From Promethearchaeota archaeon (lineage in GTDB: Archaea > Asgardarchaeota > Lokiarchaeia > Sigyniarchaeales > Promethearchaeaceae), in contig JAFGBS010000009.1 of assembly GCA_016933055.1 (NCBI GenBank), positions 450,001 to 482,000 on the forward strand: 32,000 nt of DNA, given 5' to 3'. Positions 1,724 to 19,046 of this stretch are shown here, piece by piece (the stretch's first letter is position 1; every line of letters starts with the position of its first letter). Below the pieces are notes generated by a model, which worked only from the letters and a program-made list of their open reading frames with translations, was not told the DNA's origin and searched no databases. Made by a program: the position numbers and the translations under genes.

Positions 1724-4351
1724 TTGGTCAAAGAAATTGACATGATATATATGAATGAACGGGAGATCGGTAAACAGTCTTTAATTACATCCTTATCAGA
1801 GATAGGTTTTACTTTCCTCCCGAATACCAAAAATATATTGCAAAAAACGCTGGAATTACAAAAAGGAAAGAAAGTCACGTGGATCTGGAGTTTCTGTGAT
1901 CAAATAGACTGTATAACGAACTTAAATAAACATAATTCATCATATTTAATTATCCATATTAACAGAAGCCCCAAAAACATAATTGCGGCACTTTTTCACG
2001 CAAATTCATCTATAGAATTCTTTAATGAGGATCTAAATAGCAAGAGTACATCCTTTGTCAGATCAATCCTCAGATATTTCGCGGAATATCAGATACAATT
2101 AGACTCTCAATCCATTCAAAAAATTTTCGGATTAGATAGTTTCTTTTATCATTTAGCCCAAAAATTGATGGAAACTTCTGAATTCGATAAAATACGCTGG
2201 AAAACCCTCTTTATTCCCTATTATGATGAAGGCACAATAGATGATCTATTATTATTTTCTCATAGCTATTTGTCATTTTTGTTGAAGCTTTTTATTTTGA
2301 AACAGACAGAGAATACTGGCTTGACGACACAAAATTTGAAGTCGAAATTGCAAGCTTATCCATCATTTTGCGATGTCTTTTTTACTAAGGACCTCTTTTC
2401 TGGGATTCTTTATAATATTAAATTAACAACCATCTTTGATTGTTTAATACCTAAGCTAAATTTTCAGCAAGTAGATTTGTTTTCAATTATTTTCCAAGAA
2501 CTTATCTCCTTAAAAACACGGCAATCATTGGGAGAAGTGTATACTCCCTCCTCCTTAATACGTTTGATGGTCCAAAAGAAAATATCGGATCAAGAATCAT
2601 TTTTAGATCCTGCATGTGGGACTGGGTCCTTTCTAATCGAGATTTATAGCCATTTGAAAGAGACTGAGAAATTAACCGAAAATACTGAGTTATACGGGAT
2701 TGATGTGAATCCCCTCTCAGTAATGGCAACTATAACGAATTTTTATTTATTACAACAAGGGACTTTTCCCGAAAAGTGCCCTCAAATAAAAATTTTTCAT
2801 GCGGATGCATTGATATCTGAGGATAATCCATCAATAGCAAAAGTAATAGAAAAGAAAGTCGATTTTATTATTGGAAATCCCCCTTGGATTAACATTTCTG
2901 GAATATATCGGAGAGAATATAAAGAATTTCTGAAGAATTTGGCTAAACAGTTGAATATTCTTTATCCAATAGAGTCAAAAAACACAGAAATATGTACCAT
3001 TTTTTTCAATCAATCTAGAAATTTGTATTTGAAGAAAGGAGGGGAAATTTTTTTCATTTTTCCAGCATCCGTTCTTAATGGGAGACAACACGTGTATTTC
3101 CGATATTTTCCTGGTTTTAAAGATATTGAGATATGGCGCTTTAAACAGGACATCTTCAAAATCCATAGTATTTGTTTGTACGCTCGAAATTCGGGGCAAG
3201 ATCAAAAACCTTTTGAAAATAGAGAAGCTTTAAAAAAAAGATTGATCCTATCCAGTTTTCTTCTCTCCATCGATAATAACGGGGATATAATTCAAGATTC
3301 AAGAAAGAGAATTCCTTTGATCCCCATTTACATTAAAGATGCCAAAAACGGAAGTTTCCCATTGGTGGGAAGATACAATCCCCTTTCATTAGTTCCGAAA
3401 GAATTGCAGAGTGTTGTTCCAACAAGATCCCCTTATTATTCACAAGTAAAAGGGGGACTGCGTATTGTCCCCAGAAGATGGGTAGTTATCCAAGAACACC
3501 CTCCTTTTAACGAAACCGTAATCATCCATCCTGATATGTCGCAACAAGCAAAATCTCAATGGATTACGCCTCCATACAAAAAAGCGGAAGTGGAATCAAA
3601 ATATATCCATGAGTTTGTAAAATCCGAGTTTTTAATTCCTTACACTTTCGTGCAAACTAAATATGCATTTATACCAATTCGCCCCACTAAAAAAGCTATT
3701 CTAGAACGAAATGTTATAGAAACGAGCCATCTTCTTCCTTATGCTTCTAAATTCTACCGTTTTCTTGATGCCGAATATCGTAAACGTATTAAAAAATCCG
3801 CATCCATGCCAACTCTTGCAGATAATTTCACATATAATGGACGATTATTACCCACCAATGTAATTCTTCAATCGCACGAAGTTATGGTTGTTCATAATTC
3901 TATAGGTTCAATTGTTAAAAGTGCTGTGATCCGACACCCGCTCCTATTGGATAATTCCTTATATTATATCATCCTAGAAAATATTGAAGAAGCGTATTAC
4001 CTATGCGGCGTATTGAATTCAAATTTAATGACCAGTCTTGTTCGATTGATTGGAAGCACTGGATCTCGAGGAAGTCTGCGAAATATTCATAAAAATCCTT
4101 ATAATTTCTCTATCCCTCATTATTCGTCTTCTCCACTTCAGAATGAAATTGCCAATTTATGTAAAAAAATCGAACGTTATGTTCAGCGATTTGTATTAGA
4201 TTCACAAAAATCCACTTCACCGAGGTCAAATAAAACTGAACAAGTGATTATAAAACCTAGAACTATACAAAATCGACTTTTGACTGATTTAACATATAAA
4301 GAGTATACCTTTACCCTTGATTCATTAGTGAGAGAAATCTTGATCCACTGA
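1724..4351 (+). CDS. N-6 DNA methyltransferase, type IIG/Eco57I-like architecture (gamma-class MTase plus C-terminal specificity region)
   Basis: LGEVYTP (motif X), LDPACGTGSFL (motif I, ~2606), IIGNPPW (motif IV, ~2876) and C-terminal EEAYYLCGVLNS. The track start is TTG; ATG alternatives lie at about 1742-1751. Confidence 0.85.
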   Translation: MVKEIDMIYMNEREIGKQSLITSLSEIGFTFLPNTKNILQKTLELQKGKKVTWIWSFCDQIDCITNLNKHNSSYLIIHINRSPKNIIAALFHANSSIEFFNEDLNSKSTSFVRSILRYFAEYQIQLDSQSIQKIFGLDSFFYHLAQKLMETSEFDKIRWKTLFIPYYDEGTIDDLLLFSHSYLSFLLKLFILKQTENTGLTTQNLKSKLQAYPSFCDVFFTKDLFSGILYNIKLTTIFDCLIPKLNFQQVDLFSIIFQELISLKTRQSLGEVYTPSSLIRLMVQKKISDQESFLDPACGTGSFLIEIYSHLKETEKLTENTELYGIDVNPLSVMATITNFYLLQQGTFPEKCPQIKIFHADALISEDNPSIAKVIEKKVDFIIGNPPWINISGIYRREYKEFLKNLAKQLNILYPIESKNTEICTIFFNQSRNLYLKKGGEIFFIFPASVLNGRQHVYFRYFPGFKDIEIWRFKQDIFKIHSICLYARNSGQDQKPFENREALKKRLILSSFLLSIDNNGDIIQDSRKRIPLIPIYIKDAKNGSFPLVGRYNPLSLVPKELQSVVPTRSPYYSQVKGGLRIVPRRWVVIQEHPPFNETVIIHPDMSQQAKSQWITPPYKKAEVESKYIHEFVKSEFLIPYTFVQTKYAFIPIRPTKKAILERNVIETSHLLPYASKFYRFLDAEYRKRIKKSASMPTLADNFTYNGRLLPTNVILQSHEVMVVHNSIGSIVKSAVIRHPLLLDNSLYYIILENIEEAYYLCGVLNSNLMTSLVRLIGSTGSRGSLRNIHKNPYNFSIPHYSSSPLQNEIANLCKKIERYVQRFVLDSQKSTSPRSNKTEQVIIKPRTIQNRLLTDLTYKEYTFTLDSLVREILIH

Positions 4352-4439
4352 AATTTTTTATAGTTAAACATAAAGGTCCACATTTCGATATAAACATAGG
4401 AAACATAGCATCAAGTTACGAATTTTAAGGGTCAAGAAA

Positions 4440-6008
4440 ATGAACTGGCAAGAAGTGATCATCCTAATCGTATATAGTCTATTACTGGCGGGTATTATCG
4501 TTATTATCATATTCAGAGAAAAAATCTTTGAACGAATCGAACGACCAAAAGTGAGTGCACCCAGCCCCAGAGTTCAAAAGATCCTGCAAAAATATTTCAA
4601 AGAAAAGGAAGCTCAACAAAAAGAACTTGAAAAACTTGAAATAATTGAAGCAATGAAAGTAACTATGCTGGATGAGATTGAAACAAAAAGCACTGAGATG
4701 ACCGAAAAGGCTGAAGCTACCATCAGAACACTCGAACCCGAAGAAAAATTAATCGAACAAGGAGGGAAAATGTTCACCCAGTTCAGTATCGGTCTTGAAA
4801 ATGCTTTACCTCGTGATGAGAAAGAACGCGTTAAGGATATGGGTGATTTAATAGATGCTATCAAAATCTTAGAAAGCTTGGATAAGGACCATTATGAGCA
4901 AGAAATTAAGGATGATACTGGAAAAGGTATGTTTTTCGACCAGATCACTTCCAAATTATATCGTGCAATGAGGAAGGAAGAATTCACCAAAGATAAACTC
5001 TTTGTGTTTGATAAGTTGGTCACGCTTGGCTTGAAAACTCTTAAAAACACTACTCGAAAAGATTTGCATGATGCCTTGAATTTTATGAAAGAGGCTTATT
5101 ACATCAAAGATTATTTAGTGATAAACCCTGAGCTCACACTTATTTCAAGAAAGGGGGATATTCCTACATTTTCGAAATCGGAAACTGTTGTATTAGCATT
5201 AGCTTATGAAGAACATCCTTTACACTACAGTTTATTGCTAGAAAAATCCAAATGGTCTGAATCCTATGCAAATTCAGTAATTGATAACCTAGTTCAGAAA
5301 GAACTAGCAGAACGCCACAATGGGATCATTTCGCTTATTGGTTTTGAAACTCCGGAAGAAAAAGCAGAGAGAAAATTATTAGAAGAGAAATTAGAAGAAA
5401 ATTTGAAAGAAAAAGCACGATTACGCAAAGAACAACAACTACGTTTAGAACAAGAATTACGCAGCGAGACATACCCTAAGGAGAAATCCGAAGAAATTAA
5501 ATCGGAGTTTGAAGTAGATGAAGAAGAGTTTGAGGATATCATCGGTAGCGAATTTATTGAGGACAACACAGACTTCGAACTTAATGAGGATGCGATGATT
5601 GAGGGAATTATGACAATCTTTGAAAATTATGAACATATGAATGGAGGGCTGATGGACATACGTCTTATTCATCAATACCTATCGGAATTATATATTGAGA
5701 TAACCGTAGAGCAAATACTGAATACTTTGGATTCGTTAATGGAAATGGGTTTAGTCCGAGAAGTATTAAATTTATCCGGTGTCACCATAGTATTATTTAA
5801 AGAAATCCCTTTAGATGAAGAAATGAAAATTCTTTTAGGTACTATTTTGGAAAATGGATGGATGGATAAAACAGAAATTGGCTTGAAACTCGGATGGGAT
5901 GAGGAACAAACCCTTAATGTGATGAAACGACTGCAAGATGTTGGCTTGTTAAGATTGGATGAAAAAAATAGAGTTGTAATCCCGGGATTGTTCATCCAAC
6001 AGAATTAG
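4440..6008 (+). CDS. Membrane-anchored protein with two EAP30/Vps36-like (ESCRT-II) winged-helix modules separated by a coiled-coil and acidic linker
   Basis: TM at aa ~5-25 followed by basic residues. The C-terminal module (HMNGGLM...ENGWMDKTEIGLKLGWDEEQTLNVMKRLQDVGLLRLD...IPGLF) and the internal module (TTRKDLHDALNFMK...ETVVLALA...KSKWSESYANSVIDNLVQKELA) both resemble the Vps22/EAP30 pattern as remembered. Confidence 0.7.
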   Translation: MNWQEVIILIVYSLLLAGIIVIIIFREKIFERIERPKVSAPSPRVQKILQKYFKEKEAQQKELEKLEIIEAMKVTMLDEIETKSTEMTEKAEATIRTLEPEEKLIEQGGKMFTQFSIGLENALPRDEKERVKDMGDLIDAIKILESLDKDHYEQEIKDDTGKGMFFDQITSKLYRAMRKEEFTKDKLFVFDKLVTLGLKTLKNTTRKDLHDALNFMKEAYYIKDYLVINPELTLISRKGDIPTFSKSETVVLALAYEEHPLHYSLLLEKSKWSESYANSVIDNLVQKELAERHNGIISLIGFETPEEKAERKLLEEKLEENLKEKARLRKEQQLRLEQELRSETYPKEKSEEIKSEFEVDEEEFEDIIGSEFIEDNTDFELNEDAMIEGIMTIFENYEHMNGGLMDIRLIHQYLSELYIEITVEQILNTLDSLMEMGLVREVLNLSGVTIVLFKEIPLDEEMKILLGTILENGWMDKTEIGLKLGWDEEQTLNVMKRLQDVGLLRLDEKNRVVIPGLFIQQN

Positions 6009-6103
6009 ATACGTAGCATTTTTCTCTTTTTATTTTCATGTATGAAATAAGTAAAAACTGAATCTACACATTAATGAAAAAATAGGTAAAGTGTGAAAAT
6101 AAA

Positions 6104-6613
6104 TTACTTTTTCGATGTTAAAGCTCCTATCAGTCCGATGATTCCTCCACCTGCAGTCATGAATAATCCAATACCAAGACGCCATCTCACCCCAGTGAAT
6201 GAATCACCAATAGTTATTCCAGCACTATCCCAAAATATATTTGTATCAATATAACTGGCCCAAACTGCTGCTTCGGAGTCACCTAATAATACAAAGAATA
6301 CTCCCACACCCACAAGCACTAAAACACTTCCCAATAGAGAGAGAATTTTATTTCCGGGCAAGCAAAGTAAAGCTCCTACACCTGCGATAATTCCTGGAAG
6401 CAAGTAGGTAAATGTATCACTGAAGTAGGGGTCTCCATCCCCGAAAAAAGCAGATAAATAGTCATTATCAGTAACTTCATTTCCTAGAACAGTTAGAAAA
6501 TTCCACCATCCGAGTTCTTTGATAAAAATGCTCAGAACAACACCTAATAATGCAGCTATCCCACCTATAATTGCAAGGAAGGATCTTTGAGTTTTTTTTG
6601 TCATAAGAATCAC
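6104..6613 (-). CDS. Hypothetical Gly-rich integral membrane protein (about 4 TM)
   Basis: Four hydrophobic segments with two hydrophilic loops. ATG at 6604 is an alternative to the GTG start. Confidence 0.7.
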   Translation of the reverse strand: MILMTKKTQRSFLAIIGGIAALLGVVLSIFIKELGWWNFLTVLGNEVTDNDYLSAFFGDGDPYFSDTFTYLLPGIIAGVGALLCLPGNKILSLLGSVLVLVGVGVFFVLLGDSEAAVWASYIDTNIFWDSAGITIGDSFTGVRWRLGIGLFMTAGGGIIGLIGALTSKK

Positions 6614-6730
6614 TAATCAGATAATAATTGATATTCCATCTTTTAAAAATTAATTTTTTATTTTCCACTTATCAAATTTTGGATTGTTTAAGAAATCAGT
6701 TTTAAAAATGTTTAGTGGGAACAAGAAACC

Positions 6731-8137
6731 ATGAATGATCAAGAACTATTCCGTCTTTCGAAGAAAGAACGCTTTACTTATTCCCTTATGCAAATGCCTA
6801 ACACAATTTTAGGGGGGATTTTTAGTTTCTTGTTTGTTGATCAGTTTTGGGACAACTTACAGATGGATCAAACCTTATTTGTTATAGCACAAATTCTTTA
6901 TGCGGTTGTAAATAGTCTTAATGATTTTTATTTCGGCAGGATAAGTGACAACACCGACGCAAAGCGTTGGGGTAGTCGTCGTTTGATTTATATTAAATGG
7001 GGTGGTCCACTTTGGAGTTTGGTGTTTTTTTTAACATGGTTCCCATGGAGTTACACAAATCAGTGGATAATATTTTTTAATTTTTTAACAATCATGTTCA
7101 GTTTTGACTCGTTGTTATCCTTAGTATGGATCGTCTGGCTGGCTTTAATGTCAGAACTCACAGAAAATCATGAGGAAAGAAATAGGATGGGACTTTATAA
7201 TGCTTATTTTAACATATTGGGTGCAGTTTTTGTCGTGATTGCTTTTCTTCTTTTCCAAGCTCCCAACGGATTATTATTATTTCGAATATTTGCTGGATTC
7301 TGTTCTGTGTTATGTGCAATCTGTTATATCTATGTCGGTACTCATCTGAAAGAAAGACCTGAGTTATATGTAAACCAAGAGCATTTACCATTATTTAAAT
7401 CACTCTCTGAGGTATTGAAATCTCGTTCCTATATTACAATGACTGTATTTAGGGTTTTCAATCAACTTAATGGAGCTCTATCGACTGCATTTGCGTTCAC
7501 ATTCTTGTACTGGTTAGGAGATATTTATATACTCATTGCATTTTTGACTCCTATCGTAAGTATCTTGGGATCTTGGGTTTATAAGAGTCTCTCTGGTAAA
7601 TATGATGTTAAAATATTAGTAATATGGGGGAGAACTCTGCAAATCTTGTTGTCCATAGCAACCTTTTTTATTTTATACATTCCGGGTACGGAATTTATTA
7701 TATGGGGTGTTGTTTTCCTTAACGGTATATTCGGAGGTTATATGATCTTTGATGTACCAATTATGTCAATGGTAATGGATGAGGACGAAGTCTTCCATAA
7801 TAAAAGACGAGAAGGCTTGATCTTGGGTACTAATGCATTTTTTAACAAAATCGCAGAAAGTTCCGCGCCGATTTTGGGTACATACATCCTTCTACTATTT
7901 GGATTTATCCAAGGAGAAACACCAAGTACAGATGCAATTTTGGGGATAAAATTTCTGTTCTTAATTATTCCCGCAATTGTGAATTTTATTGCACTTCTTG
8001 GAATCGCGTTTTTCCCCCTATATGGAAAAAACCTAGAAAAACTACAAAAACAATTAAACGAATTACACACTGAAAAAAAAAGAGTGTATGATTCTTCAAA
8101 AGATACTGGAGATATAGAAAGAACAAATAAGCTCTAA
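6731..8137 (+). CDS. MFS transporter, glycoside-pentoside-hexuronide (MelB/MFS_2-like) family
   Basis: About 12 TM helices; NDFYFGRISD...RWGSRR loop 2-3 motif; SELTENHEERN; DEDEVFHNKRREG in the C-terminal half. Confidence 0.85.
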   Translation: MNDQELFRLSKKERFTYSLMQMPNTILGGIFSFLFVDQFWDNLQMDQTLFVIAQILYAVVNSLNDFYFGRISDNTDAKRWGSRRLIYIKWGGPLWSLVFFLTWFPWSYTNQWIIFFNFLTIMFSFDSLLSLVWIVWLALMSELTENHEERNRMGLYNAYFNILGAVFVVIAFLLFQAPNGLLLFRIFAGFCSVLCAICYIYVGTHLKERPELYVNQEHLPLFKSLSEVLKSRSYITMTVFRVFNQLNGALSTAFAFTFLYWLGDIYILIAFLTPIVSILGSWVYKSLSGKYDVKILVIWGRTLQILLSIATFFILYIPGTEFIIWGVVFLNGIFGGYMIFDVPIMSMVMDEDEVFHNKRREGLILGTNAFFNKIAESSAPILGTYILLLFGFIQGETPSTDAILGIKFLFLIIPAIVNFIALLGIAFFPLYGKNLEKLQKQLNELHTEKKRVYDSSKDTGDIERTNKL

Positions 8138-8184
8138 TGTGAAACAAAAATCGATTTCACTATTTTTCCCAATCAATCACACTT

Positions 8185-8198
8185 AAGAAATATATAAT
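8185..8198 (+). promoter_or_regulatory. Putative BRE plus TATA box for the HAD hydrolase gene (near-leaderless)
   Basis: AAGAAA followed by TATATAAT, about 28-35 nt upstream of ATG 8226, matching archaeal core-promoter spacing. Confidence 0.45.
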
Positions 8199-8225
8199 AA
8201 ACTACTAAGTAAGAAAAGTAAACTG

Positions 8226-8699
8226 ATGAAATTATATAATATACCTAACTATGGAAAATTCGAGATTCACAATATTCTTTTGGACCTTAATGGAACAATT
8301 ACTGCGTTCGGGAATATTCCTGCTGATCTAAGGTATCTTATCCAAGAAATGAAAAAACATTTTGAAATTTATGTGATCAGCGCAAACACCAGGGATACTT
8401 TGGATGAAATTGCAGAAGAATTGGATATTAAAGCAATTCACATACCAAAATCGAAAGCAGAATCACAGTCAAAACTAACTTCACTCCGAGTATTGGATCC
8501 CGACCAAACTATAGTGATAGGAAATGGAAATAATGACACCGAAATTATCACACAAGCTGCTATAGGTATTAGTGTTATAGGAAAAGAAGGTACATCCATT
8601 CAAGCGTTAATATCCTCAGATATGGTGGTACAGAGTCTAAGTGATGCATTTAAGATATTATTGGATGAAAAAGCATTAATCGCAACTCTACGAAAATAA
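8226..8699 (+). CDS. HAD-superfamily hydrolase, soluble P-type-ATPase-like (COG4087-type)
   Basis: Motif I LLDLNGT, motif II ISAN, motif III K, motif IV IGNGNND; about 157 aa with no TM. Confidence 0.8.
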   Translation: MKLYNIPNYGKFEIHNILLDLNGTITAFGNIPADLRYLIQEMKKHFEIYVISANTRDTLDEIAEELDIKAIHIPKSKAESQSKLTSLRVLDPDQTIVIGNGNNDTEIITQAAIGISVIGKEGTSIQALISSDMVVQSLSDAFKILLDEKALIATLRK

Positions 8700-8726
8700 G
8701 GAAAATATAAAAAAGTACCACTGATT

Positions 8727-11700
8727 TTATAGAGGAGGACCTGGATCTGATTCGTCACTAAAGGAAATTTCCTTCAGCGTTGTGTCTCTTGCTTTTTTTT
8801 TATACAGTACTGTTACAACACAAGCCAACGCGATCGCTAATGCAATTCCAATTCCTATGGTAATGTATGGTATAACTGTGGAATACACAATTACGGTTTG
8901 GATTGTTGAAGCTACAATATTCCCATATACATCCTGTACTTCCACAAAATAGTGTACTTTGGAATCCACATTTTCCAATCCAGATATAATGATATCAAAT
9001 GCATTTATGTCGTCAATAGAATATGTCGTTTGGGATCTCCACGAATCACCTTGTCGGAAGGTAAATCGAACTTTGTAAATCTGGTTGTTGTCAAAAGCTT
9101 CAACATGTAGGTTTAATTCTACATCTTCAATATGTTCGATTTGCGAAACTGCAACTGTGTTTATGGATGGGTAGACTAAATCTCTGTAAATACTCTGGTT
9201 TGCATAAAATAACAGTGGAAAATTCATTAGTGCGAACGGTTCTGAGCTTATCGTGAGGTTTTGATACATACCCCATAACTTTGACGAGGGAACAATAGAA
9301 TTTTTAACCGAGTCCACTAGTAGGTTGTAAGTAATAACTGTATCTCCATGCGGTAGTAATGGAATGAAGAAATGAATATCCGAGTAGATCGATTGATAAG
9401 TAATCTCTAGAGCATTTGATTCTATAGATTGTCCATTTACTTTGATAGTATCAGTCGCTAATATCATTCCCGCTGGAATCGAATCATCCAACGCAAAATA
9501 TTGCAATGAATCATTAGGATTTGACATAATAAGCGAAACAGAAACTAATTCTCTTGGAAGAATGTTTATAGTTTTTGAGAATTCTTTCTGTAGGGCAATT
9601 TCATAATCTAAATTTGCAGAAAGACTTTTGGAATTAAGTGGAGTTAATACTGCAGGAGATTGCTTGGAAATACTTGCCGATACATCTTCTTCCAACACAT
9701 TTATCTCTACAGGTCCAATCATTTTATGATATAGTAGTGGATCATCTAAATCTGAATTGATGAGTAATAACATTGACACATAAAAGCCATCAACAGAATA
9801 GGTTCCTAGTTCTGAGGGAGCATGTAGAGTAAAATTAACTGATTTACCTTCTGTAATCGTTGTAAAAGTTTTTGAATACTCGTATGCCGATACCTGAAAT
9901 ATCTCCGGAACATTTATCATGCTCAAAGAAACCTCTGATAATGTCAAATCTTCATAAAACGGATCAATATCCACTGTGACATTGAAAAATTCGTCTGTAT
10001 TAATTTCTATTAGTTCTGGTATATTGATTACTGGCACATAACGAATAATTTGAGTAGATGTAAAAATAAATGCAAGTTGTCCTGTCCCTATTGTCGTAAT
10101 ATTTATTTCATTTTGTCCATCTACTATATATCGGCTTATCTCAGTTAAGATTGATGATGGAGAGTAACTAGCATCAGTCAAATTATAAATTATTTGGGGG
10201 ATTTTTGAATTTACAGATATATTTACGGTTCCATTGAAATCTAATACTGGTAATGATTCTGAAAATTTCGTTAGTTCGGTTAAAGTATAAATTGCAGCCG
10301 AAGAATCTGCTGTTGACCACCAACCCCAGGTCGATTTCGAATCCAGTAAAAATTTTACGGCTTTTTGTATTATTGCATAATTTCCAAGATAGTCTTCTAA
10401 TGCTAATGCTAGTGTAGCATAAGCTGTAATTTCTACACTATTACCCAGGTTTCTCCAGTAATAAAAAGCATCATTTTCCCAATATGCAGTAGTTGCTGTA
10501 GATTTTCGCTCAGCTAGCAAATAGGAAAGCATGCTTGTCTTAATAGTATCATTCTCATAAGGAGTATTCCATGTAGATATTAAATATAGGGCTGCTCCAT
10601 ATGGACTTTGATGATTTACATTTAACCAATCCGCATTCAAAAAGTCTATGCCAGATTGAATTGCATTTTCCATTGCAGATGTTTTATTTGCAGATAAGAT
10701 TAGAGTTCTAAGGGTATAAATTGTTGCTTCAAACGCATTTGCAGAATAGTAGGGATACTCCCAACTTCCATCAGTCTTTTGTTCACTCACGACGTAGTTG
10801 TATGCTTTAAACATCACAAAATCATTTAATTCGAATCCAGACAGCTTAACTAGTTCTAGAGTAAATACTGTAATTACTGTCATTTGGAGATTGGATTCCC
10901 CATTTCCCCACCATCCCCAGCCTCCATCAGTATTTTGCAGGTTATATACTCTGCTCAATCCTTGCATTATCATAGGAATTAGTTCTTCGATCAATGCTTC
11001 GGTGAGTTGACCTATATCATTTAAATATCGATATATCATTGCAGTAGTTATCAGTTTGGAAGTAGTTTGTTCTATACATCCATGAGGATATCCTACTAAG
11101 CTTTGCCACCCCTCTATTGAAATCTCCATTACGTCTTTAAACAAAGAAAGTGTTTCCTTATGGAAAATACTCGAGGGATCGAGCGTATAATTGAAAACAT
11201 ACGATCCCATGGATTGATTCACATAAGCTGAGAACCTTTCGGTATATTCGTATCCATTTGGATAAGTGTTGGCTTGCATCTGTTTTGCATCTGAATATAT
11301 AATGTTCTCCTCTTCACTCAAGGCTAAAATGGTAATGTTATGGAGAAAAGGATCTCGTGCATAAAGTGTAAATTCGACTTCCGATACGTAATTATGCGGT
11401 ATTCGTATATTCTGAGTGGGATTGTTTAATATATCGAATCCAGGTGCATCAATTATGACATCTGCAGTAAGATCAGTGCCAGCATAATTATATATATACG
11501 CCTTTAAGGTCACAATTTCATCTTGTGTTATTGGTGATGGAGGTTCAAATTCGACAAAAAATGGTAAAAAGGCTTTAATCTCCACAGTTTGGGTTTGTCC
11601 CCATAAGATATTTGTTTCATCTATAGCATTCCCCACTAATCGAATAGTCCACTCACCGATATTATCAGGAAGATGAAATGTGAAGTTTGTCGGACCATTT

Positions 11701-14700
11701 ATTACCTTGGATGGGATCCAGTTAGCGGATTCAGTAATATTCTTGCGTATGTTAATATCATAGGATCTGACAATATCATCAAGAGATGGTGAATTTAGAC
11801 CTTCCAATCCGAATAAAGAAAATTCATCCCACCCTCCTCCTAGCTTTCTAACATAAAAAGGTGAAAACCAGAATCCCCCCGTAGGTAATTCATAACTTAT
11901 CCATGCGTAATTCTCCCAAAATACTCCGCTACCCCAACTACTTCCACTACCTATGTATGCATGATAAGAACTGCGTTCAAAATAGTTTAATTCGGAATCC
12001 TCTTCTGGTTCTACCGCAAGAACGGCACTGTCTATAAATGTAGTGGAAATTAGCATGGGATTATCATCATTCGGGGTAATTGTTAATGTAACCTTATCAC
12101 CTGGTTCATATACTTCTTTATCTGTGGAAATTTGAAATCCTGATTCAAATTCCACATGAACAATCAGATATATTTCATGAAGTCGACCAGATTCTGCGAT
12201 GGTGTAAATCATTATCGTAAAATCTGGTCCTAAATCGGATGTAATGGGTAAATTTTTCGTAAATTGATCTTCCACTATTAGTAATCTCTCGGAATACAGT
12301 ATTCCCCGCTTGTAGATTTCGAAATACAATGGTTGATTTGTCGACACATTGGTTACTCCGCAAATTTCTAAGGTGTCTCCAAGATCCACCTCAATTCTAG
12401 AATCATCATGAGTCATAATAGTAGCATTTGTGGTTATCCCGATAGTATTTACTGTACCGACAGAGAATTGTTTCGTGACAGAGTGATATAAAAATCCGCC
12501 ATAGTAATCGTTACGTCTGGAATACACATAAGAATATAGATAGTAAGTACCCTCAGGGGCAAATGTAGGAATGGTAATAGAAAAATCCCGTGTTCCATCT
12601 ATCTCGAAACCAGCACGTCCAAGTAAATTATATTCTGCATCATAGATGTAAATCCTTCCCTCTCCTTTCTGTGCTGTTTGAGTTAATGCATCTACATAAT
12701 TAGCAGTAAAATCAAGTGTATCTCCAGGATTCAACATGAGGTTTAGCAACTTAATATCCAATGCATATTTCCTATAACGATAATAGGTGAACCAATCCGT
12801 GGAACGTCCGTCTTCGAGTTCGATATCAAGCCGGATTTCAAATAAATTATAATTCTTCACATCTTCAAGTGGTAAAGCGAATTCTAATTTACCCGCACCA
12901 TATTCATTGGTTGTAGAATAGTAAGTTCCTAATAGAGTCCTTCCTCTTATGGTTGCAATATAAATAGGATATTCTTTAACTCCATACACTCGGATTTTCG
13001 CAGTGACATTTGCCAAAGGATTGTATTCATATGTATAATACCATTCAGAGGTGGATAGGATTTGAAATACATTAAAATAGTATTCTAAATTTTCATTTGG
13101 GGATGGAGCCCAATCGGATAAATATCCATACGCAAAAAGTTCCTCATTTCGTGTATATTTCTTTACTGCATCAGCAGTTCTTCCATAAGTATCAGTTACA
13201 GCTGCTTCTGCAGAAAATACCCAATCAATTCCTTCCAACCATTTTAAATCAATACTAAACGAAAATATACCTTGACCATTAGTTTTACCAGAAACTCGGT
13301 ATACTATCTCATCGTTATAATCTTTTAGAGTAAGAAATACTTCTGCATCCACTACAGGCTGTCCAAAATAGTATTCTACATCAACAGAGCCTTTAAACAA
13401 TTCCTGTTTGTACAATTTTTGTAATCCTCTGGTTTTAGGATAAAATTCTTGACCATTTGTATTTATTGAAACCCGGAATACAGGTTTTACATAAAAATCG
13501 ATGCGAATAGAATGCAAATAATAGATTTCACCAATTGAAAACTCAAATCCGAAGCTACCAGTTTCAGTTTCATAATCTAAAGGAAATTCCATAATAGCTA
13601 CTCCCTCTAAATCCGTTTCTATTTCCGTCCAAAAAACTGCAAGTTCGCTGGGATTGTAGATTGTTAACTGAACTTTTTGATTACTATAGGGAATTCGAGT
13701 CTCATTCAGATAATTATATTCAAAGACTAGTGCACGTAATTTAATTGTCTCACCTGGACTGTAAATAGTCTTATCTGTAGTAATTACAAATTGGTATTTA
13801 TCATAATTCATTTCCTGAGCACCTCCCCATAACGTATAATAATAATGTGACCAATCTTGATAGAGAAATGTGCGATAGGAAATGGATCCTTCAGTGGATT
13901 CAATGGTTAAACGCAAGGAATCACCGAAATAATTTTCATCTTTAAATAAAAGAATGGGATCAGTGTGAAAAATATCATAACCATACGTATCTGTCTGTCC
14001 TTCCCCATATTGAACAGTAATCCACTGTTCTGCATTATAATCATATGTATCAAGAAAATACTCATAATGATGGTTCGGCATAGGTGAAAAATCAGAAATA
14101 TTTACTAGATGCACTGCTGCATGATAATTTTGATTTTCTGTGTAATACATAGGTCCTTTCAGAAAAATTCCTGTCTCTGAAACGCTGAATTCTCGATATG
14201 TTGAAACATCTCGATCATTATAATAAGCCAGTACTGTATACGGTCCTGAATCCGAGGTATCCGAAAAAGTTAAAGCAACCTCTCCATTATCATCCGTGTA
14301 AAACTGATCAGAAAATATTAGCTCTGAATTGTAATAGTTTGAATACTGATAGTTATAGTACCTATAAAACCCTTTATAGATATGAACCGTAATAACGTTA
14401 TCCTCACTAGGGATAAAACTTTTTGTTAATCGTAATTTTAAATCAATGCTCTCGCCAGGTATAACAGCATATTTATTCAAATATAAGGTTAGGGAATAAT
14501 CCTGGAATGAATACCAATTTTGGGATGACTCGGGCAAGGTTTCTTTATTATTTTCATTCTCCTCCCCCTCCTCACTATACAATAAAGGGGATGTGCGGTT
14601 TACTTTAAAATAATAAGGTGAAGAATGTGGTGTAAAGGATTTTACTGGTTCTTCTTCCTCCAATTGGGGGGTAGCACCTGCAAAAGATACGTTCAACCAA

Positions 14701-14762
14701 AAATTGGACACCGGAAGTAATAGAAATAGTAATACAAAACTCATAACTTGACGTTTTTTCAT
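8727..14762 (-). CDS. Alpha-2-macroglobulin family thioester protein with signal peptide and C-terminal TM anchor
   Basis: MG-domain signatures TDKTIYSPGETIKLRAL and TDKEVYEPGDKV; LPDNIGEWTI; thioester GYPHGCIEQT (11067-11081); QNTDGGWGWW, SVEITAYATLAL and WWSTADS in the alpha/alpha barrel. The track starts at a TTG at 14864, but ATG 14762 (MKKRQVMSFVLLFLLL) yields a normal signal peptide. Confidence 0.92.
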   Translation of the reverse strand: MKKRQVMSFVLLFLLLPVSNFWLNVSFAGATPQLEEEEPVKSFTPHSSPYYFKVNRTSPLLYSEEGEENENNKETLPESSQNWYSFQDYSLTLYLNKYAVIPGESIDLKLRLTKSFIPSEDNVITVHIYKGFYRYYNYQYSNYYNSELIFSDQFYTDDNGEVALTFSDTSDSGPYTVLAYYNDRDVSTYREFSVSETGIFLKGPMYYTENQNYHAAVHLVNISDFSPMPNHHYEYFLDTYDYNAEQWITVQYGEGQTDTYGYDIFHTDPILLFKDENYFGDSLRLTIESTEGSISYRTFLYQDWSHYYYTLWGGAQEMNYDKYQFVITTDKTIYSPGETIKLRALVFEYNYLNETRIPYSNQKVQLTIYNPSELAVFWTEIETDLEGVAIMEFPLDYETETGSFGFEFSIGEIYYLHSIRIDFYVKPVFRVSINTNGQEFYPKTRGLQKLYKQELFKGSVDVEYYFGQPVVDAEVFLTLKDYNDEIVYRVSGKTNGQGIFSFSIDLKWLEGIDWVFSAEAAVTDTYGRTADAVKKYTRNEELFAYGYLSDWAPSPNENLEYYFNVFQILSTSEWYYTYEYNPLANVTAKIRVYGVKEYPIYIATIRGRTLLGTYYSTTNEYGAGKLEFALPLEDVKNYNLFEIRLDIELEDGRSTDWFTYYRYRKYALDIKLLNLMLNPGDTLDFTANYVDALTQTAQKGEGRIYIYDAEYNLLGRAGFEIDGTRDFSITIPTFAPEGTYYLYSYVYSRRNDYYGGFLYHSVTKQFSVGTVNTIGITTNATIMTHDDSRIEVDLGDTLEICGVTNVSTNQPLYFEIYKRGILYSERLLIVEDQFTKNLPITSDLGPDFTIMIYTIAESGRLHEIYLIVHVEFESGFQISTDKEVYEPGDKVTLTITPNDDNPMLISTTFIDSAVLAVEPEEDSELNYFERSSYHAYIGSGSSWGSGVFWENYAWISYELPTGGFWFSPFYVRKLGGGWDEFSLFGLEGLNSPSLDDIVRSYDINIRKNITESANWIPSKVINGPTNFTFHLPDNIGEWTIRLVGNAIDETNILWGQTQTVEIKAFLPFFVEFEPPSPITQDEIVTLKAYIYNYAGTDLTADVIIDAPGFDILNNPTQNIRIPHNYVSEVEFTLYARDPFLHNITILALSEEENIIYSDAKQMQANTYPNGYEYTERFSAYVNQSMGSYVFNYTLDPSSIFHKETLSLFKDVMEISIEGWQSLVGYPHGCIEQTTSKLITTAMIYRYLNDIGQLTEALIEELIPMIMQGLSRVYNLQNTDGGWGWWGNGESNLQMTVITVFTLELVKLSGFELNDFVMFKAYNYVVSEQKTDGSWEYPYYSANAFEATIYTLRTLILSANKTSAMENAIQSGIDFLNADWLNVNHQSPYGAALYLISTWNTPYENDTIKTSMLSYLLAERKSTATTAYWENDAFYYWRNLGNSVEITAYATLALALEDYLGNYAIIQKAVKFLLDSKSTWGWWSTADSSAAIYTLTELTKFSESLPVLDFNGTVNISVNSKIPQIIYNLTDASYSPSSILTEISRYIVDGQNEINITTIGTGQLAFIFTSTQIIRYVPVINIPELIEINTDEFFNVTVDIDPFYEDLTLSEVSLSMINVPEIFQVSAYEYSKTFTTITEGKSVNFTLHAPSELGTYSVDGFYVSMLLLINSDLDDPLLYHKMIGPVEINVLEEDVSASISKQSPAVLTPLNSKSLSANLDYEIALQKEFSKTINILPRELVSVSLIMSNPNDSLQYFALDDSIPAGMILATDTIKVNGQSIESNALEITYQSIYSDIHFFIPLLPHGDTVITYNLLVDSVKNSIVPSSKLWGMYQNLTISSEPFALMNFPLLFYANQSIYRDLVYPSINTVAVSQIEHIEDVELNLHVEAFDNNQIYKVRFTFRQGDSWRSQTTYSIDDINAFDIIISGLENVDSKVHYFVEVQDVYGNIVASTIQTVIVYSTVIPYITIGIGIALAIALACVVTVLYKKKARDTTLKEISFSDESDPGPPL

Positions 14763-14878
14763 TAAGTCCACCAAGAATTCAATATATGGTATACAGAATG
14801 ATACTATCATTATACCATACATTAGAACAGTAAATTGAAAGTGTTCTAAATTATAGATTCTCAAAAAAAAAACACCTG

Positions 14879-14910
14879 AAAAATATATCGAGATAGATAG
14901 ATATATTTTT
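14879..14910. promoter_or_regulatory. 11-bp perfect inverted repeat, candidate operator in the divergent A2M/AIM24 promoter region
   Basis: AAAAATATATC (14879-14889), a 10-nt spacer, then GATATATTTTT (14900-14910). Confidence 0.4.
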
Positions 14911-14973
14911 TAGTTCGCACCAAGGATATTTCTAAGAGACATCAATTCTCTCTTCATTAGGTAAACTAAAAAA

Positions 14974-15696
14974 GTGAATAAAATGGAACAAGGAATACAT
15001 TATTCGTATGAAATTGCTGATCGCCCCACCTTTTCTTATTTAAAAGTCCTTTTAAAGAAAGACCAAGAGATTAAGTCCGAACCCCAAAGTATGATGTTCT
15101 TCGAGCCTACTCTTGAATTGCGTACAGAACGAGCTGAAGGGGGTTTTTTTAAATCGCTAAAACGGACTCTAGCGGGTGAGAAGTTTTTTGCCAACGTGTA
15201 TTATGCCCATGATGACGGATGGCTAGCTTTGTGTCCTTCATTTGCCGGAGACATTCGCCATATAGCAATGCAACCGGGAGATTCGTGGATTGTTTTCTCT
15301 GGAGCTTATATTGCATCTTCTATGAACCTATCTCAGGACACACGCTTTCAAGGATTAGGGAAAGGTATCATGTCCCAGGAACGTCTGTTTATTTTAACGG
15401 TTATAGCGGATCAAGGTCCAGGAGACTTATTTGTTGGGGCAAATGGGGCTTTTATGGAGTGGACACTCCAGCCAGAACAAGTTCTGAATGTGGATAATGG
15501 TCATCTTGTTGCTATGAGTACAAGTGTAACCATGCAATTTCGCGCTGCAGGAAATCTGAAGACAACTCTCCTCTCTGGGGAGGGTTTTATGTGTAAACTA
15601 ACAGGACCCGGTAAGGTGATTATTCAATCAAGAAATCCGCGTGAATTTGCCATGTGGCTTTATCGCTTTATGCCAAAACCTAGCAGTACTTCTTAA
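14974..15696 (+). CDS. AIM24 / TIGR00266 family protein
   Basis: EPQSMM, GGFFKSLKRTLAGEKFF, DNGHLVAM and LLSGEGFMCKLTGPGKVIIQSRN. ATG 14983 is an alternative start. Confidence 0.9.
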   Translation: MNKMEQGIHYSYEIADRPTFSYLKVLLKKDQEIKSEPQSMMFFEPTLELRTERAEGGFFKSLKRTLAGEKFFANVYYAHDDGWLALCPSFAGDIRHIAMQPGDSWIVFSGAYIASSMNLSQDTRFQGLGKGIMSQERLFILTVIADQGPGDLFVGANGAFMEWTLQPEQVLNVDNGHLVAMSTSVTMQFRAAGNLKTTLLSGEGFMCKLTGPGKVIIQSRNPREFAMWLYRFMPKPSSTS

Positions 15697-15721
15697 ATTT
15701 CTACTCTCTCTCTTTATTTTA

Positions 15722-16246
15722 TCATATTGGTTTATTGCGAAAACGAATTATTACTTCAAACCAGAGATAGATAATAATAAGGCTACCAAATAAAATAACA
15801 AAAAATGAATCTTTTACCCAAATCGTATAGAAGAAGATAAGATAAATCAAGAAGAGTACGGTAAAAAATACAGCAAAAAATAGGATTAGAGGAATAAGAT
15901 TTTTTCCTAATAAAATCCAAGAGGTCAAGGAAGGAATATTTGCTTTTTTTATCAAACGATAATTACCGTTCCGATTTTCGGCGAGTCCCAGTTTTTCTAT
16001 TTTTTCCAAGTGATATTTTGCAACCGAGGGTGAGGACAAGGATAAATTTTTCTGAAGTTCTCTCACTCCGCATTCTTTTTTGTTTAGCAGTGCAAAATAT
16101 ACCATTAATGTTGTTCCTTTAAGATTTTTGATTACTTCAGAACGTTGAAGTTCTATTTCCGTGTCAGATGGTACAGTTTTTTTTCTAAACCGCTTTAAAA
16201 AAGATAAGCAGCTTTTATCTTTCTTCTGGGATATTTTTTCTGACAC
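15722..16246 (-). CDS. Winged-helix transcription regulator with C-terminal TM helices
   Basis: LKGTTLMVYFALL...GVRELQKNLSLSSPSVAKYHLEKIEKLGL HTH and wing, followed by two hydrophobic helices. Confidence 0.8.
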   Translation of the reverse strand: MSEKISQKKDKSCLSFLKRFRKKTVPSDTEIELQRSEVIKNLKGTTLMVYFALLNKKECGVRELQKNLSLSSPSVAKYHLEKIEKLGLAENRNGNYRLIKKANIPSLTSWILLGKNLIPLILFFAVFFTVLFLIYLIFFYTIWVKDSFFVILFGSLIIIYLWFEVIIRFRNKPI

Positions 16247-16301: not shown

Positions 16302-18029
16302 CTAAGAATTTTGCTTTACAAAGTCGACAACAGCTGATAGCTCTTGTTTCCAAGTATCTTTCGGTCCGAATATATATATCCGAATATTTGGACCAGTTCC
16401 TGAAGGTCTTACAAATAATACGCTCCTCTCCGATTGTAAATATATCACATCGACTCTATTCTGCATATCTGTAAACGATTTAACAGCAAATTCAAATCCT
16501 CTTATTGTGATTGTTTTTCCAATTATACTTGTTAGATTATCAATATACTGAATCTTTTGTTCATCCGTTGCTGACAAAGTTGTTCTCCCTCTTCCAATAT
16601 CTTCAATATAGGATGAAAAATCATATCCCATTTCTAATAGGGCACATAGACAAAGGATTGCTGGCGCAGGATACTTATCTCCCATTATAGGATATTGACT
16701 TGAAAGTTTACCGTTGAACCGGGTAAATATATTAAAGGTATGACCTCCGCTTTCCTCCCATAACACAAAAATAGTCTCACCTAAAATTCCTGAATTCTTA
16801 ATAATTTGTTGAATTTCATCCTTTGTGCGTATTTTCTCATATACATTATTTTTTTGTTGATATATCACCGCAAGATCCACTTGTGATTGTGGAACATCTA
16901 AATCCGCAGCCAAATATTGAAATATACCTAAATGTTTGTACCCTACTCCACAAATAAAATTAATTTTAGAAGATTTATCGCAACCGGGATCACTGGGTAT
17001 TGTCTTTGCATTGATGATATTTTTTCCCTTTTCGGTCGCCAAGATGTTATGCATCGCGGTATACAATTGGTTGGGTTCAAAATTATAAAATTTATCCCCG
17101 ACATGAATAATAAATACGATCCGATCTCGGTCAGCGTCCACCATTATAGAGATTTTTGCATTATGTTTAACCATTATTTGCTTTACTTCATCTTCTTCAA
17201 ACGGATGAGTAGGATCTGGGGGATTCATATTTTTATCGATGAGGATTACATTAGCTCCACATGCTTCTAGTAATTTAACCAATTCGGGAGCTGCCCCCAA
17301 AAAAGGCCACACTACGATATTTTTCCCCTCTAATACTTCCAGGTCCAAAATTTTGGAAACCAAGTCGAGAATGTAATGGTTATTAACTCCATCAGCATCT
17401 ACCATTATTGGAGTATAAGATTTAGAAACTGTGATTTGGTTTAATTTAAGAGCATATTGACTTACTTTTTTCATAATCTCGCCTGATATGGGGATGGGGC
17501 GTTGAATATAAAACTTTAAACCATTCCATTTTAACGCATTATGACTTGCCGTAATCATAAGTACAACATCGATTTCATCAAATAATGCTATTGAACCTGC
17601 AGCATAAGGAGTGCTCATCTTTGATAATCCTCGAATATAACTACTGTGGGGATCTTTTTCCCCTTCTCCTGATTGGTGGTAGATGGAATATCCCTCAAAT
17701 GTAAAAATTCGGCTAGATAAATCCAGTAATATATCCGCAGATGGACGATCATCCGTGACAATTAATACATTCGGTGAGGCTTTCTTTACTTCTTTTTTTC
17801 CTACAACGGCGATAGCCTTTATTACACGCAAAAAATAAAACATCTTTTTACGTGTTAAGGTATAAGTGCTATTTTTCACTTCAAAAATTTCCATTCGTAA
17901 CCCACTAGTAGGTGGCACTAATGGATCTATGATGGCTTTTTCAGAATCATCTAATTCATCAAGATAGATAATGTTGTAATTCTCCTTGGGATTTTCGGGT
18001 ATCTTCTCGAACTTATAGCAATATTCCAT
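16302..18029 (-). CDS. Alpha-D-phosphohexomutase (phosphoglucomutase/phosphomannomutase family)
   Basis: Catalytic TASHN, metal loop DADRDR, sugar loop EESGGH, phosphate loop VRPSGTGP. Confidence 0.88.
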   Translation of the reverse strand: MEYCYKFEKIPENPKENYNIIYLDELDDSEKAIIDPLVPPTSGLRMEIFEVKNSTYTLTRKKMFYFLRVIKAIAVVGKKEVKKASPNVLIVTDDRPSADILLDLSSRIFTFEGYSIYHQSGEGEKDPHSSYIRGLSKMSTPYAAGSIALFDEIDVVLMITASHNALKWNGLKFYIQRPIPISGEIMKKVSQYALKLNQITVSKSYTPIMVDADGVNNHYILDLVSKILDLEVLEGKNIVVWPFLGAAPELVKLLEACGANVILIDKNMNPPDPTHPFEEDEVKQIMVKHNAKISIMVDADRDRIVFIIHVGDKFYNFEPNQLYTAMHNILATEKGKNIINAKTIPSDPGCDKSSKINFICGVGYKHLGIFQYLAADLDVPQSQVDLAVIYQQKNNVYEKIRTKDEIQQIIKNSGILGETIFVLWEESGGHTFNIFTRFNGKLSSQYPIMGDKYPAPAILCLCALLEMGYDFSSYIEDIGRGRTTLSATDEQKIQYIDNLTSIIGKTITIRGFEFAVKSFTDMQNRVDVIYLQSERSVLFVRPSGTGPNIRIYIFGPKDTWKQELSAVVDFVKQNS

Positions 18030-18097
18030 ATTTACAGATGAATTCCTCTGGTATTAAAAGGTTTTAGAATGGATGTAGAAATTTAATTTAGGATGAC

Positions 18098-18982: not shown

Positions 18983-19007
18983 TATTAATTCTAACCTTTG
19001 ATTAGCT

Positions 19008-19026
19008 CAAAAATATATTTATTTTG
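19008..19026. promoter_or_regulatory. Quasi-palindromic AT element, candidate shared bidirectional TATA box
   Basis: CAAAAATATATTTATTTTG is centred about 30 nt from ATG 19047 (+) and about 35 nt from ATG 18982 (-). Confidence 0.4.
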
Positions 19027-19046
19027 CGATTGTCTCAAGATTAATC

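What the first reader, a model, noticed from the sequence alone, without database searches (positions are those of the whole stretch)
4440..6008. Membrane-tethered, internally duplicated ESCRT-II (Vps22/Vps36-like) protein
Seen: an N-terminal TM (aa ~5-25) followed by R/K residues, suggesting a cytoplasmic C-terminus, then two related helical/wing modules (aa ~163-301, nt ~4926-5342; aa ~384-520, nt ~5589-5993). Compared with human EAP30/SNF8 as remembered: NGGLM matches NGGLI; ENGWMDKTEIGLKLGWDEEQTLNVMKRLQDVGL matches KNGYVTVSEIKASLKWETERARQVLEHLLKEGL; IPGLF matches LPALF; and in the internal copy ETVVLALA matches HTVVLQLA and TTRKDLHDALNFMK matches VSQDDLIRAIKKLK. Established: eukaryotic ESCRT-II pairs Vps22 with Vps36 as soluble subunits recruited via the GLUE domain and ESCRT-I, and Asgard archaea have a soluble Vps22/36. 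Inference: a single chain supplies both halves of the Vps22-Vps36 core plus its own membrane anchor, so it could nucleate ESCRT-III without ESCRT-I or ubiquitin. No Vps25, Snf7 or Vps4 gene is in this window.
Basis: partly seen in the sequence, partly recalled or inferred. Interest (0 to 1): 0.85.

Follow-up and report, generated by a model that had tools for sequence, protein, structure and literature searches.

The report
Membrane-anchored double Vps22-like Asgard protein
This gene of a Loki-type Asgard archaeon encodes a membrane-anchored cytoplasmic protein carrying two copies of the double winged-helix module of the ESCRT-II subunit Vps22; the databases leave it unannotated, I found it in no paper, and it could tether eukaryote-like membrane-remodelling machinery to the cell membrane.

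Summary
ORF 4440-6008 (+, 522 aa) has one N-terminal membrane helix. Behind it lie a conserved helical region and two Vps22-type (EAP30) modules, each a helix plus a tandem winged helix. A long charged helix and an acidic disordered linker separate the modules.

The modules are each other's closest relatives (hhalign 99.2%), and a tree shows an intragenic duplication. So this is not a fusion of a Vps22 with a Vps36.

The full architecture occurs only in the window's own order: about 58 of 154 genomes, and none of 246 others in the phylum. Both cultured species carry it: Lokiarchaeum ossiferum NEF87_000714 and Promethearchaeum syntrophicum DSAG12_03078. Public records call it hypothetical, 'TrmB' or 'TolA'.

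No ESCRT gene lies beside it in ten loci, so an ESCRT role rests on homology alone.

This scan has already reported the same family on other DNA (e1-2469543, the P. syntrophicum orthologue). I reached the same reading independently. New here are the duplication history, the phyletic range and the neighbourhood.

Verdict: a real new architectural variant of a known family; its function is untested.

The parts
4440..6008 (+). Whole gene: 522-aa membrane-anchored double EAP30 (Vps22-like) protein
   Evidence: ORF list. Orthologues of 72-76% identity with the same length and start. 62 cluster representatives at E<=1e-10.
4455..4514 (+). N-terminal transmembrane signal-anchor (aa 6-25); predicted N-out, C-in
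   Evidence: KD 3.32 over 19 residues, a short acidic N stub and K/R after the helix. It is conserved in 45 of 47 family members, and no other hydrophobic segment exists. AF2 helix 3-34, pLDDT 85-94.
4566..4886 (+). Conserved helical region (aa 43-149) holding the family's invariant P124 and D133. Its last two helices align with the N-terminal helices of SNF8.
   Evidence: Invariant and near-invariant columns. AF2 helices 43-52, 56-97, 99-117 and 127-149. AFDB SNF8 matches cover model residues 2-205, i.e. aa 101-304.
4917..5342 (+). Module 1 (aa 160-301): helix + WH1 (187-236) + WH2 (246-299), Vps22-like and divergent (NGG motif lost)
5352..5471 (+). Long charged helix (aa 305-344), a possible coiled coil
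   Evidence: AF2 helix 305-344, pLDDT about 90. Conserved E/K/R pattern.
5475..5576 (+). Acidic disordered linker (aa 346-379), variable in length across the family
   Evidence: pLDDT <50. pI 4.05. About 190 residues longer in P0010 and P0011.
5586..5984 (+). Module 2 (aa 383-515): helix + WH1 (404-452) + WH2 (460-513), Vps22-like; keeps the NGG motif and the C-terminal 'RLDE...IPG' motif
4354..4395 (+). A/T-rich TATA-like boxes in the 88-nt upstream spacer (TTTTTTATAG at 4354-4363, ATATAAAC at 4388-4395)
   Evidence: Read from the sequence. Not tested.
6019..6037 (+). T-rich run after the stop codon, a possible archaeal terminator
   Evidence: Read from the sequence. Not tested.

Best explanation
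The gene encodes a single-pass membrane protein whose N-terminal helix anchors it in the cell membrane and whose whole remainder faces the cytoplasm. The cytoplasmic part carries two Vps22-type (EAP30) modules, each a leading helix plus a tandem winged helix. They arose by duplication inside this gene after it split from the canonical soluble Asgard Vps22. A charged helix and a flexible acidic linker separate the two modules. Shown here: the architecture, the homology to Vps22, the duplication, the conservation within one Asgard order, and the cytoplasmic orientation by the positive-inside rule. Inferred: it works as a membrane-resident protein-protein scaffold of the ESCRT-II type. Through its winged-helix surfaces and its conserved N-terminal hairpin it would hold partners at the membrane, such as Vps25 and through it ESCRT-III, or proteins with a Vps28 C-terminal domain or a steadiness box. 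The anchor would take the place of the lipid- and ubiquitin-binding GLUE domain of eukaryotic Vps36. The confidence given is for this whole statement. I put the architecture and homology part alone at about 0.95 and the ESCRT-linked role at about 0.45.
Against: No ESCRT gene is adjacent in any of ten loci. The conserved neighbours are a PGM/PMM-like enzyme, a longin-plus-small-GTPase protein and a 187-aa coiled-coil protein, on the other strand. The family is missing from about 96 of 154 genomes of its order, including 53 of 54 genomes of one well-sampled genus that still has canonical Vps22, so it is not a core ESCRT part. Module 1 sits on a long branch and has lost the NGG motif. The protein itself scores below Pfam's EAP30 cut-off (21.9 against 26.8 bits). 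The AF2 whole-chain pTM is 0.39, so the model gives no confident packing of one module against the other.
Confidence: 0.5

Rival explanations
1. The protein descends from Vps22 but has left the ESCRT system. It would be a membrane-resident scaffold for another process, for instance small-GTPase signalling or envelope and sugar metabolism, and its winged helices would be re-used as general protein-binding modules.
For: There is conserved synteny with a longin-plus-Ras/Arf-like GTPase, a coiled-coil protein and a PGM/PMM-like enzyme in 8 of 10 loci, and never with ESCRT genes. Its distribution within the order is patchy while canonical Vps22 is kept. Module 1 has a long branch.
Against: The neighbours are on the opposite strand and are absent in the most distant family of the order (L027), so the synteny may simply be inherited. 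Module 2 keeps the Vps22 motifs (NGG, and the conserved Asp after the last helix) and remains the closer relative of canonical Vps22. Tandem winged-helix EAP30 modules have no known role outside ESCRT-II.
Confidence: 0.35
2. It is a membrane-tethered nucleic-acid-binding wHTH regulator of TrmB/MarR type, as the UniRef name suggests. It would be released or activated at the membrane, or would tether DNA to the membrane.
Against: All these hits are below their Pfam cut-offs and cover only one winged helix of about 60 residues. With family profiles, Vps22 wins by 4 to 7 orders of magnitude and covers both winged helices plus the leading helix. The WH2 domains are acidic (pI 4.8 and 5.5). In the own genome the module-2 profile finds no transcription factor.
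Confidence: 0.08
3. The hydrophobic N-terminus is a cleaved signal peptide, and the protein is secreted or surface-exposed.
For: There is a single N-terminal hydrophobic segment.
Against: There is no positively charged n-region (the stub is net -1, and 0 or negative in nearly all members). The hydrophobic run is about 20 residues and K/R follow it, which is the pattern of an N-out/C-in anchor. The rest is an acidic, coiled-coil-rich homologue of a cytoplasmic family.
Confidence: 0.03

Closest known systems
Eukaryotic ESCRT-II subunit Vps22 / SNF8 / EAP30 (PF04157; PDB 2zme_A, 3cuq_A, 1u5t_A)
   Same: Each module has the leading helix plus two winged helices of Vps22. The alignment runs in register, including the NGG motif (module 2) and the conserved Trp and Asp of WH2. 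Vps22 is the best sequence and fold match for both modules.
   Different: There are two modules in one chain and an N-terminal transmembrane anchor. A roughly 110-aa conserved helical region, a long charged helix and an acidic linker are added. Sequence identity is only 15-20%. Binding to Vps25 is not shown.
Canonical soluble Asgard Vps22 (about 240 aa; asCOG cog.002769 of Makarova et al. 2024, PMC10936438); in this genome G000:C16:37253-37924
   Same: It occurs in the same genome and lineage and shares the EAP30 core (hhalign 98.6% for module 2 and 96.4% for module 1).
   Different: The canonical protein is soluble, has a single module, is basic (pI 9.1) and is found throughout the phylum. 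The new family is anchored, doubled, acidic and confined to one order. In the tree the two are split with 100% support.
Eukaryotic Vps36 (and the OB-fold 'VPS36' of P. syntrophicum in 10.1101/2025.11.01.685982)
   Same: It is a tandem winged-helix ESCRT-II core joined to an extra N-terminal part that brings the complex to membranes.
   Different: There is no GLUE/PH, zinc-finger or OB domain; a transmembrane helix stands in that place. Vps36 structures rank well below Vps22 (ranks 15, 22 and 29; 3cuq_B at E 0.024).
VIA1, the thylakoid and envelope membrane protein that binds VIPP1 (10.1101/2023.10.10.561251)
   Same: It is a membrane-anchored protein with an ESCRT-II-like winged helix, proposed to recruit an ESCRT-III-superfamily protein. 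This is the working principle proposed here.
   Different: VIA1 has three transmembrane helices and one winged helix, with no detectable sequence relation to EAP30, and it is bacterial or plastid in origin. I did not test homology.
CdvA of Thermoproteota
   Same: It is a membrane-associated recruiter upstream of archaeal ESCRT-III, acting through a winged-helix contact.
   Different: CdvA has a PRC barrel and a coiled coil, and it binds the winged helix that sits on CdvB. It has no EAP30 module and no transmembrane helix. This is recalled knowledge and was not tested here.

Membership tests
EAP30 / Vps22-Vps36 superfamily (PF04157) | Leading helix followed by two consecutive winged-helix domains (fold) | tested here: met
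EAP30 / Vps22-Vps36 superfamily (PF04157) | Significant and specific sequence-profile similarity to known members | tested here: met
   Profiles against PDB SNF8: E 5.7e-11 (module 2) and 7.9e-7 (module 1). hhalign against canonical Loki Vps22: 98.6% and 96.4%.
EAP30 / Vps22-Vps36 superfamily (PF04157) | Single sequence reaches Pfam's gathering score (26.8 bits) | tested here: inconclusive
   The window's protein scores 21.9 bits, below the cut-off. Relatives P0010 (28.6) and P0011 (31.1) pass, P0010 with its best stretch on module 1 and P0011 on module 2. Only 8 of 47 members match at E<=0.01.
EAP30 / Vps22-Vps36 superfamily (PF04157) | NGG motif at the start of WH1 | tested here: inconclusive
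   It is present and nearly invariant in module 2 (N401 G402 G403) and absent from module 1.
Functional ESCRT-II complex subunit | Binds Vps25 through the C-terminal winged helix | not testable with these tools
   This needs a pull-down, a two-hybrid test or a solved complex.
Functional ESCRT-II complex subunit | Gene linked to ESCRT-I, -III or Vps4 genes, as canonical Asgard vps22 and vps25 usually are (PMC10936438) | tested here: not met
   There are no ESCRT genes within about 9 kb in ten loci from this order.
Vps36 | N-terminal GLUE/PH (or, in P. syntrophicum, OB) domain before the EAP30 core | tested here: not met
   Pfam finds no such domain. The N-terminus is a TM helix plus helices.
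TrmB/MarR-type wHTH transcription regulators | Family score above the cut-off, with a DNA-binding winged helix as the core of the protein | tested here: not met
   TrmB scores 22.8 (cut-off 25.6) and MarR 17.3 (cut-off 24.6), each on a single WH. The WH2 domains are acidic. With profiles these families fall 4-7 orders of magnitude behind Vps22.

The most novel reading that the evidence does not exclude
The protein is a constitutively membrane-anchored, single-chain ESCRT-II core. Its two Vps22-derived modules pack like the Vps22-Vps36 pair, in an independent, convergent re-invention of that heterodimer by intragenic duplication. Each module binds a Vps25, so ESCRT-III is nucleated directly on the Lokiarchaeial cell membrane without ESCRT-I, ubiquitin or phosphoinositides.
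Probability: 0.2. Interest if true: 0.85.

Novelty: new variant of a known kind. Interest (0 to 1): 0.6.

Why it matters
How Asgard ESCRT machinery is brought to membranes, and what it does in these cells, is an open question. Archaea lack the phosphoinositide that eukaryotic ESCRT-II reads. The published inventories I could read list only soluble ESCRT-II proteins (PMC9192718, PMC10936438, 10.1101/2025.11.01.685982). A conserved protein that puts two Vps22-type modules on a membrane anchor is a concrete candidate for such a link. It is present in both cultured Lokiarchaeia, so it can be tested directly by localisation and binding assays. It also shows a doubling of the EAP30 module within one gene. 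That parallels, without being homologous to, the Vps22/Vps36 duplication that built the eukaryotic complex. Public annotation ('hypothetical', 'TrmB N-terminal domain', 'TolA') currently hides it.

Tried and rejected
1. Complex prediction of module 1 + module 2 + the genome's Vps25 C-terminal domain gave no verdict (score 0.00, controls not run). It counts neither for nor against binding.

2. With only ten close sequences, module 1 against module 2 looked weak (probability 8%). With 47 diverse sequences it is 99.2%. The shallow result was a depth artefact.

3. A link between EAP30 proteins and longin-GTPases was considered. In this genome a 294-aa longin-like GTPase sits beside the canonical Vps22 and a paralogue (29% identity) sits near the new gene. 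The Vps22-side adjacency is absent in five other genomes, so I dropped it.

4. The short proteins P0070-P0087 were first taken as canonical Vps22. The tree shows they are module-2-type sequences, either fragments or single-module variants. I rebuilt the canonical set from a separate search.

5. A MIM1-type Vps4-binding motif in the conserved helix 127-149 was checked by eye and did not fit.

6. No paper holds the locus tags or accessions of the cultured-species orthologues. The two ESCRT surveys and the 2025 preprint do not mention this architecture in the text held. The supplementary tables were only partly held.

8. The weak third EAP30 hit in the genome (L003) is a different protein, a UFL1/DDRGK/PCI-like winged-helix array with a Vps28 C-terminal domain.

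Full report
**The gene.** ORF 4440..6008 on the + strand (522 aa, ATG start) is the only long frame in the region. An 88-nt A/T-rich spacer with TATA-like boxes lies upstream, and a T-rich run follows the stop codon, so it probably forms its own transcription unit. The window is G000:C17:450001-482000 of a 3.76-Mb Asgard genome. That genome also has a canonical 240-aa Vps22 (EAP30, 40.8 bits), a Vps25 next to Vps4, and two Snf7-family genes, all outside the window.

**Anatomy.** An AF2 model built on 47 family members (mean pLDDT 81, pTM 0.39) gives the following parts:
- A helix at aa 3-34 that contains the hydrophobic anchor.
- Helices at 43-52, 56-97, 99-117 and 127-149.
- Module 1: helix 160-179, WH1 187-236, WH2 246-299.
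- A long charged helix, 305-344.
- A disordered acidic linker, 346-379.
- Module 2: helix 383-401, WH1 404-452, WH2 460-513.

The hydrophobic segment (KD 3.32) follows a 5-residue stub of net charge -1 and is followed by K/R. The same pattern holds in 45 of 47 members, and no second hydrophobic segment exists. This is the signature of an N-out/C-in signal anchor, not of a cleaved signal peptide.

**What the modules are.** The single sequence alone is ambiguous. EAP30 scores 21.9 bits, below its cut-off of 26.8, although it spans profile positions 96-219, which is both winged helices. TrmB scores 22.8 bits on one winged helix. Family information resolves the ambiguity.
- Relatives of 41-43% identity pass the EAP30 cut-off, P0010 with its best stretch on module 1 and P0011 on module 2.
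- The module-1 profile (A5) hits human SNF8 first in the PDB at E 7.9e-7; the next hit is at 0.006.
- The module-2 profile (A6) hits SNF8 at 5.7e-11 and yeast Vps22 at 2.9e-6; the next hit is at 2e-4.
- Foldseek puts the three Vps22 chains among the top four hits of the whole model (ranks 1, 2 and 4) and at the top three of a separate model of aa 100-305.
- Against Swiss-Prot models, the nine best hits of module 1 are all SNF8/Vps22, from animals, Dictyostelium, Arabidopsis and yeasts. Vps36 appears at ranks 15, 22 and 29.
- In the window's own genome the module-2 profile finds only itself, the canonical Vps22 and module 1, and no transcription factor.

**The duplication.** Module 1 against module 2 gives 99.2% probability, E 2.7e-19, over 136 columns. 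That is stronger than either module against canonical Lokiarchaeial Vps22 (98.6% and 96.4%). In a maximum-likelihood tree of 129 module sequences, canonical Vps22 is split from all modules with 100% SH-aLRT support. Module 1 is one clade (99%) on a long branch, nested with only weak support among module-2 sequences (quick search, 148 columns, all rows kept). The two-module chain therefore arose once, by intragenic duplication of a module-2-like unit, and module 1 then diverged quickly and lost the NGG motif. It is not a fusion of a Vps22 orthologue with a Vps36 orthologue.

**Distribution.** A direct search of 1.8 billion cluster representatives finds 85 relatives, 62 of them at E<=1e-10, mostly 500-770 aa with the same layout. 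A scan of 400 genomes of the phylum with the module-1 profile finds full-length matches (E<1e-55, frames of about 290-800 aa, the shortest apparently truncated) only in the window's own order:
- Family f1: 10 of 13 genomes, plus the window's own.
- Family f3: about 43 of 135. One well-sampled genus has it in only 1 of 54 genomes.
- Family f4: 4 of 4.

Everywhere else the profile hits only frames of Vps22 size, at 1e-6 to 1e-14. Some genomes carry tandem paralogues (G174, G175). Variants with an anchor and a single module also exist (P0077, 268 aa).

The orthologues in the two cultured species are NEF87_000714 of Lokiarchaeum ossiferum and DSAG12_03078 of Promethearchaeum syntrophicum. They are annotated as hypothetical, as 'TrmB N-terminal domain-containing' or as 'TolA'.

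**Neighbourhood.** In 8 of 10 loci the gene lies close to three genes on the opposite strand or divergent from it: a PGM/PMM-like enzyme, a 294-aa longin-like plus Ras/Arf-like GTPase, and a 187-aa coiled-coil protein. An acyl-CoA dehydrogenase lies upstream in six loci. In the window about 10 kb of other genes (6104-16246) separate the gene from this block. Upstream stand a glycosyltransferase and a type IIG-like methylase instead. No ESCRT gene is adjacent anywhere, and the most distant family of the order shares no neighbours at all. The context therefore gives no support for an ESCRT role and only weak hints at anything else.

**Function.** The modules are acidic to neutral (median pI 4.8 and 7.0; WH2 domains 4.8 and 5.5). 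This argues against DNA binding and for protein scaffolding, the only known role of EAP30 modules.

The most conserved part of the whole protein is the hairpin at aa 99-150, with P124 and D133 invariant in 47 sequences. It aligns loosely with the N-terminal helices of SNF8. In Asgard Vps22 that region has been described as steadiness-box-like (PMC10936438).

My best reading is a membrane-resident ESCRT-II-type scaffold that holds Vps25/ESCRT-III, or Vps28-C or steadiness-box proteins, at the cell membrane. I put this at about 0.45-0.5. The main rival, at about 0.35, is an EAP30-derived scaffold that has left the ESCRT system. The complex prediction with Vps25 returned no verdict and is not used either way. 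The AF2 pTM of 0.39 means the relative position of the two modules is unknown.

**Literature and earlier notes.** The Asgard ESCRT surveys (PMC9192718; PMC10936438 and its preprint PMC11188069) and a 2025 preprint on P. syntrophicum ESCRT-II (10.1101/2025.11.01.685982) list VPS22, VPS25 and an OB-fold VPS36. None describes a membrane-anchored double EAP30 protein in the text held. No paper holds the orthologues' tags.

This scan has already reported the same family from the P. syntrophicum genome (e1-2469543). I saw that note only after reaching the same conclusion, and it agrees. Other notes describe further Asgard EAP30 paralogues tied to membrane scaffolds (SPFH partners, a flotillin-NfeD-OB fusion). 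That fits a wider pattern of Vps22-type modules coupled to membrane proteins, but I did not test those notes.

**Verdict.** The mechanistic inference remains open. This is a new architectural variant of a known family, directly testable in cultured organisms.

Noticed in passing
window 16302-19610: This block is conserved next to the double-EAP30 gene in 8 of 10 related loci. It holds a PGM/PMM-like protein (16302-18029, -), a 294-aa protein with a weak longin-like N-terminus (Fuz_longin_1, E 3.8e-4) and a Ras/Arf/Roc-type GTPase domain (18098-18982, -), and a 187-aa coiled-coil protein with no family (19047-19610, +).
   Followed up: partly
window 6104-16246: About 10 kb lie between the double-EAP30 gene and its usual neighbours, which abut it in relatives. 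The stretch holds a small multi-pass membrane protein, an MFS transporter, a HAD-like protein, a 2045-aa alpha-2-macroglobulin (MG2, bait region, TED domains), an AIM24 protein and a TrmB-like regulator. It looks like a local insertion or rearrangement.
   Followed up: partly
window 1724-4351: An 875-aa protein has an N6-adenine DNA methylase domain of Eco57I/MmeI type (type IIG-like) directly upstream. The P0010 locus (L007) also carries a large N6_N4 methylase next to the orthologue, probably by coincidence.
   Followed up: no
L003:523-2877 (G000:C17:628197-630551): A 784-aa protein carries a run of winged helices resembling UFL1, DDRGK and PCI domains and a C-terminal Vps28 C-domain (36.7 bits). 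It belongs to the class of Vps28-C adaptor proteins noted by Makarova et al. 2024.
   Followed up: partly
L004:1357-2331 (-) and 2349-3299 (-): This genome's Vps25 (325 aa) has a roughly 145-aa coiled-coil N-terminal extension and lies directly downstream of Vps4.
   Followed up: partly
L001:507-1391: A 294-aa longin-like plus GTPase protein sits just upstream of the canonical Vps22 in this genome only. It is a paralogue (29% identity) of the GTPase near the double-EAP30 gene. The adjacency is absent in five other genomes.
   Followed up: yes
P0077, P0065, P0070, P0075 (proteins): The module-2-type EAP30 unit also occurs in other layouts: anchor plus one module (P0077, 268 aa), behind a multi-pass MFS-like region (P0065, 393 aa), and in apparently soluble proteins. 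Some of these may be truncated gene calls.
   Followed up: partly
G174:C211:36677-39844 and G175:C208:334-3509: Two full-length copies of the double-EAP30 gene stand in tandem in some genomes of one genus.
   Followed up: no
L036 (G137:C1:1036081-1036368): Lokiarchaeum ossiferum has a further EAP30-like stretch inside a 464-aa frame (E 1.1e-12 to canonical Vps22). I did not examine it.
   Followed up: no
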